Counted from the first letter of the stretch, positions 22,537-32,923 are shown. The stretch is 64,000 nucleotides of DNA from Clostridia bacterium (GCA_017521465.1 JAFXCN010000020.1:5797-69796); one strand, 5' to 3'. Numbers and translations are program-made. The notes: generated by a model from the sequence alone, not told the origin.

Positions 22537-23862
22537 ATGATGTTAGTAGGACCTATGAAGAAAAAAATGGTAACAACGGTTATTCTTGTTGTTATTATAT
22601 TGACAGTAATATTTGGGGTTATAGGCTTTTTATTGTTGAGTGGTAAGCAAAATCAAATTGATGAATTAATGAAAAAAGCAGAGGTAGTAGAAAGATATGT
22701 GTTTACAGAGAACTTTCCTGCTGGTCACGTAATTGATGGTGATGATTTGACCTTAGCTGTTGTAAAAGCGGAGAGCACACCAGATAATTCATACAGTTTT
22801 CAAACTGTTGTAACTCCTGGCAATAGAGAGGAAATATACCAATATACAGGAACAACATACAAAACTGGTGAACTTGTAAATACGTTAGAGTTGCTTATAG
22901 GAAGAACATTAAAAATTAATGCATCAAGAAAAACAACATTAACTGATGAAATGCTTGTTCCAATCGATGAAACACCTTCAGACGATTTGAGACTTGAAGA
23001 ATTTACAATGATTAATCTTCCAAGTGATGCGGTTGATGGTGAATATATTGATGTTAGAATAATGTTCCCTACCGGTGAAGACTTTACAGTTTTACTTGGA
23101 AAGAAAATAGAAAAGTATACAGATAGTACAATTTTCTTAAAACTTACTGAAGATGAAATTTTAACTATGGGAAGTGCTATTGTTGAAGCTTATATGTATG
23201 AAGGAACAAAAATATATGCAACAAAATATGTAGATCCTTCTAATCAATTATATAGTTATAAAAAAATAGACTATGTTGCTAAATATAAGGCAGCTGTAGC
23301 TAGTTTGATAGAATCAAAAGAAGAAAAGAATCTTGAAGCGATTATTGAAAAATTCAGAACTGCTAGTCCAGAAGAATATGAAGCCTTATTAGCAGAATAT
23401 CCAGATACATATAGAGAAGAACTTGCAAAAAGACATTCAAATGAAATTAAAGTAATGGAAAGAGACGTTGAAATCAATGAGATTGCACAATACATTGGAT
23501 TGAACGAATATGAAACTGAAGAACTAAGAACAGCAATCGATGAAAAGAATGAAGATGTAATTTCAAAATATGAAAACAAAATTGTAACATCTAAGAAACA
23601 ATTAGCAAGAACTTATCCTGTAAAACCAGAAGTTTTATCTGTAATAAAATCTAATCCGAATATTCTAAAAGAAATTAAGGATACTTTTGATGTTACAGCT
23701 CAAATATCAGGCGAAGTTCAAAAATTTGATCCAACATTATATGGAGATGAAAATAGTATTCAAGAAGCATATGAAAAATATGTAGAAAACGTAAAAAATG
23801 AACTTCAAACACAAAAAGATGAAAGAGTAAAATATTTAAATTCATTAATTGCAGGAGAATAA
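22537..23862 (+). CDS. CpaB/RcpC-like pilus assembly protein with long C-terminal helical extension
   Basis: N-terminal TM. SAF-like segment VVERYVFTENFPAGHVIDGDDL. CpaB-like beta-rich region (YIDVRIMFPTGEDFTVLL). C-terminal 200 aa is a charged helical extension. Confidence 0.5.
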   Translation: MMLVGPMKKKMVTTVILVVIILTVIFGVIGFLLLSGKQNQIDELMKKAEVVERYVFTENFPAGHVIDGDDLTLAVVKAESTPDNSYSFQTVVTPGNREEIYQYTGTTYKTGELVNTLELLIGRTLKINASRKTTLTDEMLVPIDETPSDDLRLEEFTMINLPSDAVDGEYIDVRIMFPTGEDFTVLLGKKIEKYTDSTIFLKLTEDEILTMGSAIVEAYMYEGTKIYATKYVDPSNQLYSYKKIDYVAKYKAAVASLIESKEEKNLEAIIEKFRTASPEEYEALLAEYPDTYREELAKRHSNEIKVMERDVEINEIAQYIGLNEYETEELRTAIDEKNEDVISKYENKIVTSKKQLARTYPVKPEVLSVIKSNPNILKEIKDTFDVTAQISGEVQKFDPTLYGDENSIQEAYEKYVENVKNELQTQKDERVKYLNSLIAGE

Positions 23863-23874
23863 AAATAGGAGGAT

Positions 23875-24630
23875 ATGCAAATGAAAAGTATAGGATTTGT
23901 TGGCGAAATGGATAAAACAGGATTACTTTTATGCGTTGGAAAAATGATAGCCTCGCTAGGTGCAAAAGTAATGTTTGTTGATGCTACAAAAGCACAAAAA
24001 ACTAGATATGTAGTTCCACTTGTTATGGATAATGAAACACAAGAACAATATATTACACAACATGATGGAGTTGAAGTTGCTGTAGGATTTAACAATATAC
24101 TTGAGCTAAAAAAATACCTATTATCGAAAGGCGAAGATTTTTCAGAATATGAATATATCTTAATAGATAGTGATAATGAAGAAATGTGTGAAGAATATGA
24201 TATGAAAAGTGCAAACAAATTATTTTTTGTTACAACCTTTGACAAAATGCATTTGGCTAAAGGTTTAGAATTATTGAAATTTGTATGCGCATCAAAAAGA
24301 AGAGAAGATCCAAACGGTTCAGTTAATATTGAAAAAATATTATCATATACGCAAACGAATATTAAAGCAGTTGATGATAGATATATAGAAAGACTAACAG
24401 AAAACTTACCTATTAATTGGGCAACAGAAAAAATAGTTGTATCATATGACGAAGGTGATTTATCAGCCTTTATTCAAAATCAATACAGAAACAAAATAGA
24501 ATTTAGAGATATGACACCACAAACAAAAATAGGTATTATTGATGTTGTTTCTGTGGTTACAGGCGAAGAAAAAACAAGACTTAAAAAAGTTTTAAAAAGT
24601 ATTGAAAAAAATGCAAGATTTATTGGGTAA
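23875..24630 (+). CDS. ParA/MinD-fold protein with degenerate Walker A (TadZ/CpaE-like pseudo-ATPase)
   Basis: IGFVGEMDKTG occupies the place of the deviant Walker A KGGVGKTT. YILIDSD is Walker-B-like. Confidence 0.45.
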   Translation: MQMKSIGFVGEMDKTGLLLCVGKMIASLGAKVMFVDATKAQKTRYVVPLVMDNETQEQYITQHDGVEVAVGFNNILELKKYLLSKGEDFSEYEYILIDSDNEEMCEEYDMKSANKLFFVTTFDKMHLAKGLELLKFVCASKRREDPNGSVNIEKILSYTQTNIKAVDDRYIERLTENLPINWATEKIVVSYDEGDLSAFIQNQYRNKIEFRDMTPQTKIGIIDVVSVVTGEEKTRLKKVLKSIEKNARFIG

Positions 24631-24654
24631 TAGATTGAAAGGGGAGTAACAAAA

Positions 24655-31224: not shown

Positions 31225-31239
31225 AGGAAGGGGAAGAAT

Positions 31240-31722
31240 ATGGAAGATTCATTAGCAATTGTATTTGCTATTTTAGTTTCAATAATATTAATGTTTTTAT
31301 TTCCTTTGCTAGATACATGGGAATTACAAGATAATTTATCATATGCAACAACATATGCTGCTGTAGTTGATTTTGTTGATACAGTAAGAAATGTAGGATA
31401 TATATCGCCTGAAGCATATTATAATTTTGAATCAAAACTTATGATGACAGGAAACACATTTTCAGTAAGATTAGAACATAGAAAATTTATTGAAGATGGT
31501 GGAGTAAACGATTATTTAAATACATATACAAATGAAATTATGGCTAAACTTGATGCTGGTGAAATTTATCCACTTAATCAATGGGATTATTTCTATGTTA
31601 CAATAAAAAATACTAACAAAACGCAAGCTAGTGTAATACAAAACTTTTTATTTGCTGGTGCAGATGAAACATTTAAAATTGGTACCGCATATGGTGGTAT
31701 TGTATGGGCAAGAAGTGAATAG
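31240..31722 (+). CDS. minor-pilin-like protein
   Basis: MEDSLA leader followed by hydrophobic helix; 160 aa. Confidence 0.4.
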   Translation: MEDSLAIVFAILVSIILMFLFPLLDTWELQDNLSYATTYAAVVDFVDTVRNVGYISPEAYYNFESKLMMTGNTFSVRLEHRKFIEDGGVNDYLNTYTNEIMAKLDAGEIYPLNQWDYFYVTIKNTNKTQASVIQNFLFAGADETFKIGTAYGGIVWARSE

Positions 31723-31732
31723 GAGGTAGAAG

Positions 31733-32923
31733 ATGAAGATAGTTCATTGGGCAATTATTTTTGTAATAATAATACTTCCTTTTTCAATAATATGTAGAAC
31801 AACTATACAAAAAAAGACGGTAGTTCTTCAAGATCAAACAAGAATTAATAATGTATTAGACAATGCAACCTTCGACGCTGTTGGACAAATATTGGAAGCA
31901 TCGGAAGTGTTAGGTTATGGAAAAAACATTCCCATAACACGCAATATGGCAGAAGCTTCAATAAATCGTTTCTTTCAATCTTTGGCGGTAAACTTTAATT
32001 TACCGTCTACTATACAAGTTGCAAAAGATTATTTTGGACAGTATGTTCCTGTAGTATTGATTATTGGATATGATGGAATATATATATATTCATATGATCT
32101 TACAGATAGTGGATATATGTATATTTTACAACCTAAAATTCCATATTCATATGCTGACGGAGATGTTGTACTAAATTTTACGTTAGGAAATGATTTAAAA
32201 ATATATATTCCTTCGAAAAATATTGTATTAGAGGGAGAATTAAATGAAAAAACTCCTGCAAACGAATATGAAGATATGAGAAAGATGATAAGACTTCAAT
32301 CGCCTGCTAATAGAAGAGAATTTATCGAAAAAGTTATGCCATCATTAACATCAAATTTATCAATTATGATAAAAATGCTAACTGAAAGTGAATTTTATGG
32401 TTCTAATCCTGTTAAATTTCCTAATTATTTGATGATTGGTGATGTTACGCAAGATTATGTATATACTTCACAAAATGAAATTAGTGTTGAAGCTAGTGAT
32501 TTTCATAAATTGAGAAGAGATACAATTATAAATTTAATAACAACAGTGTTGAAAGATGAAGTAAACGAGCATGATACATATGCTGATTTAATTGGTGTAA
32601 ATTATGATTTTTCTTTGCCAACTATTGATAAAGAACAATGGCAAAATTCTATTAATGATATTTCTGTACTAGCATTCTTCCAAGGTATGCCAGTTGGAAC
32701 AGATTCATTTTATAATAACTATTCTCTTGGTGGAGCAAGAATTGTACAAGTACATGATTTATATGGAAAAACAACTGATGGCAAGAAATTGTATCACAAA
32801 CACAATTGTCCAGTTTTGCTTGGGTCAAATGATGTTTTAGACTATGACGATTATGATTTAATATTTATTAATGTAAAAGATGCAAATTCAAATGGATATT
32901 ATGCATGTAAAGAATGTAGATAA
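31733..32923 (+). CDS. large pilin-like/tip-adhesin-like protein
   Basis: N-terminal hydrophobic anchor, 370-aa globular part, C-terminal Cys pair (CKEC). Last gene of the operon. Confidence 0.35.
   Translation: MKIVHWAIIFVIIILPFSIICRTTIQKKTVVLQDQTRINNVLDNATFDAVGQILEASEVLGYGKNIPITRNMAEASINRFFQSLAVNFNLPSTIQVAKDYFGQYVPVVLIIGYDGIYIYSYDLTDSGYMYILQPKIPYSYADGDVVLNFTLGNDLKIYIPSKNIVLEGELNEKTPANEYEDMRKMIRLQSPANRREFIEKVMPSLTSNLSIMIKMLTESEFYGSNPVKFPNYLMIGDVTQDYVYTSQNEISVEASDFHKLRRDTIINLITTVLKDEVNEHDTYADLIGVNYDFSLPTIDKEQWQNSINDISVLAFFQGMPVGTDSFYNNYSLGGARIVQVHDLYGKTTDGKKLYHKHNCPVLLGSNDVLDYDDYDLIFINVKDANSNGYYACKECR

What the first reader, a model, noticed from the sequence alone, without database searches (positions are those of the whole stretch)
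22537..32923. Ten-gene operon encoding a divergent Tad/type-IV-filament-like machine
Ten co-directional genes are packed tightly with short or overlapping junctions and individual RBSs. In order they are: a CpaB/RcpC-like protein, two ParA-fold proteins with destroyed P-loops, a CpaF/VirB11-family ATPase, a 786-aa polytopic membrane protein, and five small proteins with a short polar leader plus a hydrophobic N-terminal helix (pilin architecture). The gene order parallels Tad (Flp pilus) and archaeal Epd-type pilus loci. Almost every component departs from the canonical family. The ATPase is membrane-anchored and 639 aa. The platform appears fused. The pilins lack the Flp G/XXXXEY motif. No prepilin peptidase, secretin or TadG-like protein is present. 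This looks like an undescribed subtype of type IV filament system in a spore-forming Firmicute.
Basis: partly seen in the sequence, partly recalled or inferred. Interest (0 to 1): 0.85.

Follow-up and report, generated by a model that had tools for sequence, protein, structure and literature searches.

The report
Published Tad-like pilus operon of TANB77
The ten genes are real and most likely build a very divergent Tad-type (type IV) pilus, but this same gene cluster was already described in 2024 as the conserved "pilus gene cluster" of the uncultured gut clade TANB77, so it is not a new kind of machine.

Summary
There are ten co-directional + strand genes (22537-32923), each with its own ribosome-binding site. 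Gaps are 10-146 nt, and a strong hairpin terminator follows the last gene. The whole block keeps the same order in essentially all 80 related species loci that I fetched.

The Tad-like reading is also supported:
- g1 is CpaB/SAF-like.
- g2 and g3 are ParA/MinD-fold proteins.
- g4 is a CpaF-type ATPase with intact catalytic motifs and an N-terminal membrane anchor.
- g5 is a fused double TadB/TadC-like platform, shown by profile-profile comparison with controls.
- g6 models as a pilin "lollipop"; g7 shares its N-terminal motif and aligns with it, and g8 has a variant of that motif.

The claim that the system is undescribed fails. Kim et al., Nat Commun 2024 (PMC11680825) describe this cluster gene for gene (927-938 of CAG-245, my locus L077). 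They also show that the g10 orthologue (pilin 938) is a TLR4 agonist.

What is not in that paper:
- Homologous clusters sit on 35 large Bacillota plasmids and on Paenibacillus and Blautia contigs, so the cluster is not TANB77-exclusive.
- The pilins have a near-invariant ultra-short N-terminus (M-E-N-A-S-K-A-L), with no Flp motif and no nearby prepilin peptidase.

Interest is moderate.

The parts
22537..23862 (+). g1, a CpaB/RcpC-like protein: N-terminal membrane helix, SAF-type domain and a long charged C-terminal tail. It is the orthologue of protein 927 of Kim et al.
   Evidence: ORF and membrane helix. The window protein hits TIGR03177 CpaB at E=1.2e-3. Of 38 family members, 31 hit TIGR03177 (best 3.5e-9), 20 hit FlgA C-terminal and 15 hit Pfam SAF. 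Plasmid orthologues are annotated 'SAF domain-containing protein'.
23875..24630 (+). g2, a ParA/MinD-fold protein (TadZ-like) with a deviant Walker A motif, G-x-x-D-K-T. It is the orthologue of 928, and its probable true start is 23881.
   Evidence: The family profile matches MinD (4v02) at E=0.046 over the P-loop region. K14 is invariant in 44/44 and D13 is present in 41/44. A few g2/g3 family members hit CbiA and AAA_31. Kim et al. report structural homology to TadZ.
24655..25488 (+). g3, a second ParA/MinD-fold protein (CpaE/TadZ-like). Its Walker A motif is lost in this window (S-T-T where relatives have G-K-T). It is the orthologue of 929.
   Evidence: The family profile matches CapB at 3.6e-4 and a ParA-family ATPase at 5e-3. 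A plasmid orthologue is annotated ParA.
25513..27432 (+). g4, a membrane-anchored CpaF/TadA-family secretion ATPase of 639 aa. It has an N-terminal membrane helix, a conserved N-terminal region of about 230 aa, and an ATPase core at about residues 269-535. It is the orthologue of 930.
   Evidence: It matches CpaF in the PDB at E=1e-8 as a single sequence and at 6.5e-13 as a family profile. The next best PDB match is VirB11 at 7e-3. It hits TIGR03819 (TadA family) at 3e-7 and FlaI at 7.7e-4. Walker A (GEQGCGKTT), the GEV motif and the T-H-H-A His box are conserved. The membrane helix spans residues 6-24. Identity is 66-90% across 80 species.
27449..29809 (+). g5, a polytopic platform protein with 8 predicted membrane helices. 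It consists of two TadB/TadC-like (T2SSF-like) modules fused around a variable middle region. It is the orthologue of 931.
   Evidence: Membrane helices are. hhalign of a 68-member family profile against a TadB/TadC alignment gives, for residues 69-295, probability 96.5% and E=9e-10. For residues about 596-762 it gives probability 73.6% and E=2.9e-5. The middle region gives nothing. Reversed-profile and unrelated-membrane-protein controls give at most 3.5%. There is no Pfam T2SSF hit in 68 members, no PDB sequence hit, and the AF2 model is poor (pLDDT 56). Kim et al. report that each half is structurally homologous to TadC or TadB.
29956..30339 (+). g6, a pilin-like protein and candidate major subunit. 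Its N-terminus is MDNASKALVMVGAILIAV.
30372..30758 (+). g7, a second pilin-like paralogue. Its N-terminus is MDNASKALIMVGGVLITV.
   Evidence: It has the same N-terminal motif and aligns with g6.
30802..31224 (+). g8, a pilin-like protein with a variant N-terminus (MDNSQKAIQMAFAVFFFV). It corresponds to the longer 'MENA..ALKMA' class in other species (about 936).
   Evidence: It diverges fast: tblastn recovers it in only some loci.
31240..31722 (+). g9, a small protein with an N-terminal hydrophobic helix and a conserved 'FP...TWE.QD.LS' motif. It is a candidate minor pilin and the orthologue of 937.
   Evidence: It is found in nearly all loci and on plasmids.
31733..32923 (+). g10, a 396-aa protein with an N-terminal membrane helix. 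It is the orthologue of 'pilin 938' of Kim et al., which they treat as a minor pilin (TadE/PilV-like N-terminal quarter) and which acts as a TLR4 agonist.
   Evidence: It is conserved at the 3' end of the cluster and on plasmids. The functional data come from PMC11680825.
32929..32963 (.). A terminator-like hairpin (15-bp stem) between the convergent g10 and the VanW-like gene. It marks the 3' end of the operon.

Best explanation
The operon encodes a cytoplasmic-membrane Tad-like (type IVc-like) pilus assembly machine of a monoderm Clostridia bacterium. It is orthologous to the published 'TANB77 pilus gene cluster'.

Proposed mechanism, all inferred from homology:
1. g4, a CpaF/TadA-type hexameric ATPase tethered to the membrane by its own N-terminal helix, docks on g5.
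2. g5 is a single polypeptide that replaces the TadB/TadC pair as the platform.
3. g2 and g3, ParA/MinD-fold proteins of the TadZ/CpaE kind and probably non-catalytic in this strain, position or scaffold the complex.
4. g1, which is CpaB-like with a SAF domain, forms the extracytoplasmic collar.
5. ATP-driven movements of the platform extract g6/g7 (major) and g8/g9/g10 (minor or tip) subunits from the membrane through their N-terminal hydrophobic helices and stack them into a surface filament.

The variable C-terminal domains of the subunits are the exposed part. They are probably used for adhesion in the gut and are visible to the host: the g10 orthologue activates TLR4 (Kim et al. 2024).
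For: - The ATPase is closest to CpaF, at E=1e-8 as a single sequence and 6.5e-13 as a profile, with VirB11 far behind. Its Walker A, catalytic Glu and His box are conserved.
- The g5 N-half matches TadB/TadC at 96.5% probability (E=9e-10) and the C-half at 73.6%. Clean negative controls support both results.
- In the g1 family, 31 of 38 members hit the CpaB model.
- The g2 and g3 profiles hit MinD, ParA and CapB.
- The g6 model (pLDDT 81) is a 54-residue N-terminal helix plus a small beta sheet.
- The pilin-like genes are multi-copy (2-6 per locus). They combine a near-invariant N-terminal helix with highly variable heads, as in type IV pilins.
- The whole cluster is syntenic in 80 species.
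- The gene order is the same as in canonical monoderm Tad loci: CpaB, ParA-like AAA ATPase, ATPase, two platform-sized genes, then small pilin-sized genes (L088).
- Kim et al. made the same assignment independently from AlphaFold and Foldseek.
Against: - No filament has been seen from this system in any organism.
- None of the ten proteins passes a curated Pfam or NCBIfam cutoff.
- The Flp G/XXXXEY motif is absent.
- No A24 prepilin peptidase lies in the 64-kb window or within 10 kb of the cluster in about 80 species.
- My g5 structure model was too poor to use.
Confidence: 0.75

Rival explanations
1. The machine is the same Tad-like type, but it builds a short pseudopilus for DNA uptake (competence) or protein export rather than a long adhesive pilus.
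For: Monoderm type IV filament systems are often competence machines. The machine itself is under strong purifying selection: the ATPase is 66-90% identical across genera, while the other proteins fall to 25-45%. Homologous clusters sit on large plasmids next to replication and relaxase-family genes. The top NCBIfam hit of g4 is a 'TadA family conjugal transfer-associated ATPase'.
Against: No DNA-channel or DNA-receptor genes (ComEC/ComEA-like) lie in or next to the cluster. ComGA is a much poorer match than CpaF (E=0.088 against 3e-7). Several rapidly diverging pilin paralogues fit exposed adhesive filaments better. All 35 plasmids carrying the platform gene are typed non-mobilizable.
Confidence: 0.12
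2. It is an archaeal-type (Epd or archaellum-like) filament system acquired from archaea, possibly rotary and used for motility, rather than a member of the bacterial Tad branch.
Confidence: 0.04
3. The small helix-anchored proteins are not filament subunits. They are ordinary bitopic membrane or Sec-dependent surface proteins that merely travel with a Tad-like ATPase/platform module of other function.
For: They hit no pilin family and the model has no significant structural neighbour. There is no prepilin peptidase nearby. The protein that Kim et al. number 934 has an ordinary signal peptide.
Against: The N-terminal 28 residues are almost invariant across 274 proteins, and the core N-A-S-K-A-L persists even on Bacilli plasmids. 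This is the conservation pattern of a polymerisation helix and recognition site, not of a generic anchor. The model shows a continuous 54-residue helix packed on a small sheet. The genes are always placed directly after the platform gene.
Confidence: 0.08

Closest known systems
TANB77 conserved pilus gene cluster (genes 927-938 of CAG-245 sp000435175; Kim et al., Nat Commun 2024, PMC11680825)
   Same: The gene order and component assignments are identical: CpaB-like, two COG1192 ParA-like proteins, a 640-aa single-membrane-helix CpaF/TadA, a roughly 690-aa fused TadC+TadB with 8 membrane helices, several pilin-like proteins each with one membrane helix, a 178-aa protein, and a large terminal 'minor pilin'. 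My locus L077 (Clostridium sp. CAG:245) has ORFs of 357/230/279/639/692/164/.../236/177 aa. These match their Table 1 values of 358/231/280/640/693/165/.../237/178. The window proteins are 21-66% identical to those of L077.
   Different: The window is a 10-gene version from a different sub-clade (relatives L001-L017, L053). It has three rather than five or six MENASKAL-type genes and lacks the signal-peptide protein 934. Its platform is 786 aa, with a roughly 95-aa insert. Its g10 is shorter (396 against 621 aa). Its g3 has lost the Walker A Lys.
Canonical Tad/Flp (type IVc) pilus systems (Aggregatibacter tad, Caulobacter cpa; example on a Rhizobium plasmid, L087)
   Same: It shares the CpaB, ParA-like TadZ/CpaE, CpaF/TadA ATPase and T2SSF platform components, followed by small pilin genes. 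The ATPase core aligns over about 270 residues.
   Different: - The ATPase core is at most 27.5% identical to canonical CpaF, against 38-73% within this family.
- The ATPase carries a membrane helix plus an N-terminal extension of about 230 aa.
- TadB and TadC are fused into one protein, and no Pfam T2SSF hit is detectable.
- There are two ParA-like proteins.
- The pilins are 127-160 aa rather than the roughly 50-70 aa of Flp, and they lack G/XXXXEY.
- There is no secretin, no TadD and no adjacent TadV/CpaA peptidase (compare L090).
Monoderm Tad loci of Clostridia (for example Thermoanaerobacterium saccharolyticum pMU3262, L088/L091; C. botulinum pOsaka2020-1, L089)
   Same: They share the Gram-positive layout: CpaB, an AAA/ParA-like protein, the ATPase, two platform genes, then small pilin genes, with no secretin.
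   Different: Those loci have separate TadB and TadC genes of about 300 aa, an ATPase of about 450 aa without an N-terminal extension, Flp-sized pilins (57-64 aa) and DUF4320 proteins. Only 2 of 106 proteins from this family give even a weak DUF4320 hit.
Unnamed homologous clusters on large Bacillota plasmids (L. sphaericus pBsph, Thermobacillus composti pTHECO01, Paenibacillus, Cohnella, C. botulinum/argentinense, Butyrivibrio B316)
   Same: They are the same family. Their order is SAF-domain protein, hypothetical, ParA-like, an ATPase of about 610 aa (37-60% identical over 90% of g4), a platform of about 680 aa (26-38% identical to g5), then small helix-anchored proteins that include g9- and g10-like ones.
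   Different: They are plasmid-borne. They are followed by SLH-domain and DUF5704 or giant surface proteins. pBsph has an extra receiver-plus-ParA-like gene upstream. The pilin N-termini vary more (MSTNASKAL, MGENARKAL, MESPVVKAI). In the literature I found them mentioned only in passing, as a 'pilus assembly ATPase' (PMC4363355).
Archaeal Epd/Aap-type pili and the archaellum (FlaI/FlaJ)
   Same: Both have a single-polypeptide platform, short leader peptides, and pilins without a conserved Glu5. These points rest on general knowledge, not on a test made here.
   Different: The ATPase scores better against TadA/CpaF than against FlaI. The accessory proteins (CpaB-like, ParA-like) are of the bacterial Tad type.

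Membership tests
TANB77 pilus gene cluster (Kim et al. 2024) | A conserved block of 10-14 genes in the order CpaB-like, 2x ParA-like, a 640-aa CpaF-like ATPase, a fused platform with 8 membrane helices, several pilin-like proteins with one membrane helix each, and a large terminal pilin-like protein | tested here: met
   The window genes g1-g10 map one-to-one onto L077 (Clostridium sp. CAG:245, the paper's reference species) by tblastn, in the same order and on the same strand. The ORF sizes of L077 match the paper's Table 1.
TANB77 pilus gene cluster (Kim et al. 2024) | The host genome belongs to GTDB order TANB77 | not testable with these tools
   The window is 100% identical to a 'Clostridia bacterium' MAG protein (locus tag IKK43_04355). 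All close relatives are uncultured gut or rumen Clostridia MAGs with about 30% GC. No GTDB classification was available.
Tad / type IVc pilus system | A TadA/CpaF-clade secretion ATPase with Walker A, Walker B Glu and His box | tested here: met
   CpaF is the best and almost the only solved relative (E=1e-8 and 6.5e-13). TIGR03819 hits at 3e-7 but far below its curated cutoff. The motifs are conserved. The protein forms a distinct subfamily, at most 27.5% identical to canonical CpaF.
Tad / type IVc pilus system | A TadB/TadC platform with T2SSF domains | tested here: met
   hhalign gives 96.5% probability (E=9e-10) for the N-half and 73.6% (E=2.9e-5) for the C-half. Controls give at most 3.5%. 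This holds only at profile-profile level: HMMER against Pfam T2SSF finds nothing in 68 members.
Tad / type IVc pilus system | A CpaB/RcpC protein | tested here: met
   31 of 38 g1-family members hit TIGR03177 (best 3.5e-9) and 15 hit SAF. The window protein itself reaches only E=1.2e-3, at 18 bits against a cutoff of 71.
Tad / type IVc pilus system | A TadZ/CpaE ParA-like localisation ATPase | tested here: inconclusive
   The g2 and g3 profiles hit MinD, ParA and CapB only weakly (E=0.046 and 3.6e-4). hhalign against single TadZ sequences gives less than 20%. There is no receiver-like N-domain. Kim et al. report structural homology to TadZ/CpaE.
Tad / type IVc pilus system | An Flp-family pilin (about 50-80 aa, leader ending in Gly, mature N-terminus XXXXEY) | tested here: not met
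   The pilin-like proteins are 127-160 aa. Their N-terminus is M-E/D-N-A-S-K-A-L-I-M-A-G, with no EY motif. None of 106 members hits Flp_Fap, TadE or any other pilin model.
Tad / type IVc pilus system | A dedicated A24 prepilin peptidase (TadV/CpaA) | tested here: not met
   It is not in the operon. The window has no multi-helix membrane candidate with a GxGD motif other than a PlsY-like ORF. A Rhizobium CpaA query gives no tblastn hit at E<=10 across 1.74 Mb of window, related loci and plasmid loci. The rest of the genome could not be searched, so absence from the genome is not shown.
Type IV filament superfamily (general) | Subunits with a class III signal peptide followed by a roughly 20-residue hydrophobic N-terminal helix and a globular head ('lollipop') | tested here: inconclusive
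   The helix-plus-sheet architecture is predicted with pLDDT 81, and the hydrophobic helix is conserved. No cleavable leader with a Gly at -1 is evident, and cleavage cannot be tested in silico. Fold searches were non-significant.
Archaellum / archaeal type IV pili (FlaI-FlaJ) | A FlaI-clade ATPase and a FlaJ platform | tested here: not met
   FlaI scores E=7.7e-4 against 3e-7 for TadA. The profile search of solved structures returns CpaF and VirB11 but no FlaI.
Com (ComG) competence pseudopilus | A ComGA ATPase, a ComGB platform and ComGC-type pilins with the G/FTLxE motif | tested here: not met
   ComGA scores E=0.088. No FTLxE-type N-terminus is present in any small protein.

The most novel reading that the evidence does not exclude
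This cluster represents a distinct, Bacillota-wide branch of Tad-like type IV filament systems. It occurs on the chromosome in TANB77 and on megaplasmids or chromosomes of Paenibacillus, Lysinibacillus, Clostridium, Butyrivibrio and Blautia. Its pilins carry an ultra-short, almost invariant N-terminus (M-x-N-A-S-K-A-L...). They are matured without a dedicated Tad-type prepilin peptidase. Either they are not processed at all (leaderless type IV pilins), or an unrecognised or archaeal-style enzyme cleaves them after K-A.
Probability: 0.2. Interest if true: 0.75.

Novelty: already known. Interest (0 to 1): 0.4.

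Why it matters
The cluster is the only known order-wide marker of TANB77, an uncultured gut clade linked to better responses to checkpoint-blockade cancer therapy. Its terminal gene product (the g10 orthologue) is reported to act through TLR4. 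Nothing is known about whether a filament is made or how.

1. Homologous clusters exist in culturable Bacilli and Clostridia, on plasmids such as pBsph, pTHECO01 and P. polymyxa M1 pPPM1a-type replicons. This offers a genetic and structural model for a system that cannot be studied in TANB77. It also qualifies the published claim that the proteins are exclusive to TANB77.

2. The subunits lack every hallmark used to recognise type IV pilins by sequence, and no peptidase gene travels with them. Standard type-IV-filament detection tools therefore probably miss this whole family (about 1,000 clusters at 50% identity for the platform protein).

Tried and rejected
- **Direct family scans.** Pfam, NCBIfam and PHROGs scans of the ten proteins gave nothing above curated cutoffs. 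Scanning whole orthologue sets helped only for g1 (CpaB/SAF) and slightly for g2/g3. It gave nothing for g5 or for the pilin-like, g9 and g10 families.
- **g5 structure.** The AlphaFold2 model of g5, built on 29 sequences of 60-100% identity, had pLDDT 56 and pTM 0.30. I judged it unusable and did not run a fold search on it.
- **Single-template hhalign.** Comparisons of the pilin, g9, g10, g1, g2 and g3 profiles with single Flp, TadE/G, DUF4320, TadZ and CpaB sequences all gave below 20% probability. Single-sequence templates are too weak for this.
- **Internal repeat in g5.** hhalign found no direct N-half to C-half similarity in g5.
- **Mobile-element origin.** I considered a phage or mobile-element origin for the window copy and rejected it. 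The composition is uniform, there are no PHROG hits, and the cluster is present in essentially every related species locus fetched.
- **Upstream and downstream genes.** I considered whether the upstream 1588-aa A2M-like gene belongs to the system and rejected it, because it is upstream only in L001 and L002. The downstream VanW gene is convergent and separated by the terminator.
- **Glu2 as the equivalent of pilin Glu5.** This idea is weakened because plasmid homologues start MSTNASK... without the Glu.

Full report
**1. The observation**

Ten + strand ORFs lie at 22537-32923 exactly as listed. Their sizes are 441, 251, 277, 639, 786, 127, 128, 140, 160 and 396 aa. Each has a GGAGG-like ribosome-binding site. 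The gaps are 12, 24, 24, 16, 146, 32, 43, 15 and 10 nt, and none overlaps. A 300-nt gap precedes g1. A 15-bp-stem hairpin at 32929-32963 follows g10 and faces a convergent VanW-like gene. Promoter-like hexamers are no more frequent than in shuffled sequence (68 found against 75.7 expected), so promoters cannot be assigned.

Hydropathy analysis confirms one N-terminal membrane helix in each of g1, g4, g6, g7, g8, g9 and g10. It also confirms eight in g5.

**2. Conservation as a unit**

The ATPase has more than 7,500 relatives in the 5.8-billion-protein collection. The closest are all from uncultured Clostridia MAGs. A scan of one genome per species found at least 586 loci, of which 80 were kept.

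tblastn of the ten proteins against these loci shows g1 to g10 in the same order and on the same strand wherever the contig is long enough. The exception is the fast-diverging g8, which many loci do not return at E <= 1e-3. Identity is 66-90% for the ATPase, 39-78% for g5 and 25-60% for the rest. The upstream A2M-like gene is present only in L001 and L002, so it is not part of the system. More distant species carry 4-6 pilin-like genes instead of three.

**3. What each gene is**

No gene passes a curated Pfam or NCBIfam threshold. The precomputed annotation of the identical MAG contig shows no Pfam domain for any of the ten. Deeper tests give the following.

- **g4.** Residues 269-535 align to the Caulobacter CpaF structures at E=1e-8. 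A family profile raises this to 6.5e-13, and the only other solved relative is VirB11 at 7e-3. The Walker A motif (GEQGCGKTT), the GEV Walker B glutamate and a T-H-H-A His box are conserved, so the enzyme should be active. It forms its own subfamily: members share 38-73% identity in the core, against at most 27.5% to canonical CpaF. It also carries a membrane helix and a conserved N-terminal extension of about 230 residues.
- **g5.** HMMER finds nothing for g5: no PDB sequence hit with the profile, and no T2SSF hit in 68 diverse members. My AlphaFold model was too poor to use (pLDDT 56). Profile-profile comparison of the family against six TadB/TadC sequences from canonical loci did give a result. 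Residues 69-295 align at 96.5% probability (E=9e-10). Residues about 596-762 align at 73.6% (E=2.9e-5). The variable middle gives nothing. Reversed profiles and three unrelated membrane proteins score at most 3.5%. I conclude that g5 is a fused double TadB/TadC-like platform. This is firm for the first module and probable for the second.
- **g1.** 31 of 38 orthologues hit the CpaB model (best 3.5e-9), 20 hit FlgA C-terminal and 15 hit SAF.
- **g2 and g3.** Their profiles touch MinD, ParA and CapB weakly. g2 has G-x-x-D-K-T with an invariant Lys. g3 has G-K-T in half of the species but S-T-T here.
- **g8, g9 and g10.** g8 has a variant N-terminus. g9 and g10 have their own conserved N-terminal helices.

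**4. It is already published**

A literature search for TANB77 and pili returned Kim et al., Nat Commun 2024 (PMC11680825). They report 'a stretch of 10-14 genes' conserved in 122 of 129 TANB77 species. They number the genes 927-938 in CAG-245 sp000435175 and annotate them from eggNOG, DeepTMHMM and AlphaFold/Foldseek as follows:

| Gene | Annotation |
|---|---|
| 927 | CpaB |
| 928 | TadZ |
| 929 | CpaE |
| 930 | TadA/CpaF (640 aa, 1 TMH) |
| 931 | TadC (first half) plus TadB (second half), 693 aa, 8 TMH |
| 932-937 | pilin-like |
| 938 | partial TadE/PilV-like minor pilin |

My locus L077 is Clostridium sp. CAG:245, and its ORF sizes match their table. The window maps onto it gene for gene. 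They further show that recombinant 938, the g10 orthologue, activates dendritic cells through TLR4 and improves anti-PD-1 efficacy in mice.

**5. What goes beyond the paper**

(a) The paper states that all proteins except 930 have few or no homologues outside TANB77, but it searched only gut genomes at 50% similarity or more. In my searches, tblastn of g5 finds 35 plasmids. They come from Paenibacillus, Lysinibacillus, Clostridium botulinum/argentinense/beijerinckii, Butyrivibrio proteoclasticus, Thermobacillus, Cohnella, Sporosarcina, Cytobacillus and Alkalihalophilus. Three that I inspected (pTHECO01, pBsph and p12/29) show the same order: SAF-domain protein, hypothetical, ParA-like, an ATPase of about 610 aa, a platform of about 680 aa, then small helix-anchored proteins including clear g9 and g10 homologues. 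An exhaustive profile search gives 1,081 clusters at 50% identity for the platform family. Members include sequences from Paenibacillus agilis (mis-named 'GTPase SAR1') and Blautia.

(b) The core N-A-S/R-K-A-L of the pilin N-terminus survives even on these plasmids (MSTNASKAL, MGENARKAL). The paper never mentions a prepilin peptidase. I found none in the window. I also found none in 1.74 Mb of window plus loci, using either a CpaA query or the GxGD motif. The whole genome could not be searched. Maturation is therefore open. One option is cleavage after K-A by an unlinked, possibly archaeal-style peptidase. Another is cleavage elsewhere. A third is no cleavage at all.

**6. Mechanism**

The best-supported model is a monoderm Tad-like assembly machine (confidence 0.75). 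The membrane-tethered CpaF-like hexamer (g4) drives the fused platform (g5), with g1 to g3 as scaffold. Together they extract g6/g7, and minor subunits g8 to g10, from the membrane and polymerise them through their N-terminal helices. Every step is inferred from homology, and no filament has been observed.

The rivals are a competence or secretion pseudopilus (0.12), non-filament membrane proteins riding with the module (0.08), and an archaeal-type system (0.04).

**7. Verdict**

For novelty I rate it as already known: a published, bioinformatically annotated cluster that remains mechanistically uncharacterised. Interest is moderate (0.4). This reflects the medical link, the complete lack of family-level coverage in the standard databases, the unexplained pilin maturation, and the newly noted culturable carriers.

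Noticed in passing
window 17470-22236 (+): A 1588-aa protein with an N-terminal membrane helix and weak or faint alpha-2-macroglobulin family domains (A2M, MG2, MG4, A2M_BRD) lies directly upstream of the operon. It sits upstream of the cluster only in the two closest relatives (L001, L002), so it is probably unrelated to the pilus system.
   Followed up: partly
window 33676-33939: A tandem array of about six copies of a 35-nt unit (ACTTTCTGTCGGACACAAAAGTTTCACCATGACAC). It lies at and just upstream of the 5' end of the VanW-like gene (- strand), overlapping the start of its longest ORF (32938-33747; the gene call is shorter), and upstream of the small membrane-protein ORF at 34018 (+). Its function is unknown; it could be a regulatory or iteron-like element.
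   Followed up: partly
window 34494-34686 (+): A T-box leader (Rfam RF00230, 109.5 bits) lies upstream of a class II aminoacyl-tRNA synthetase gene (34745-36058; Pfam tRNA_anti-codon plus tRNA-synt_2).
   Followed up: no
window about 36000-40000: Gene orientation and GC skew both switch here. Genes are on the + strand with positive skew to the left, and on the - strand with negative skew to the right. Cumulative skew peaks near 39 kb. A tyrosine recombinase (Phage_integrase) gene lies at 38843-39913. This pattern fits a replication terminus with a Xer-type recombinase, but I did not test that.
   Followed up: no
window 45705-46046 (-) and 15117-15190 (-): A bacterial RNase P class A RNA (294 bits) and a single tRNA-Cys gene.
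   Followed up: no
L084 4135-5637 (pBsph) and L083/L084 downstream genes: The plasmid versions of the cluster have an extra upstream gene. Read by eye from its sequence (not tested), it has a receiver-like N-terminus, a ParA-like middle and a C-terminal membrane helix, like a canonical TadZ. On pTHECO01 and pBsph the clusters are followed by an SLH-domain protein and a large DUF5704 protein. pTHECO01 also has GGDEF, HD and a 2391-aa FN3 protein. These may be cell-wall-anchored partners or regulators that the TANB77 version lacks.
   Followed up: no
P0510 (Paenibacillus agilis WP_144989256.1) and relatives: Homologues of the platform protein g5 are named 'GTPase SAR1' in NCBI and UniRef. This looks like an annotation error that is propagating through Paenibacillus genomes.
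   Followed up: no
L018, L021, L033, L048 (about 19300-21200): In the more distant TANB77-like loci the cluster is followed by a gene of about 400 aa. Its N-terminus (…IPD.I.IFEGE…) looks like the sporulation protease SpoIVB. This is my recollection of the motif, not a test.
   Followed up: no
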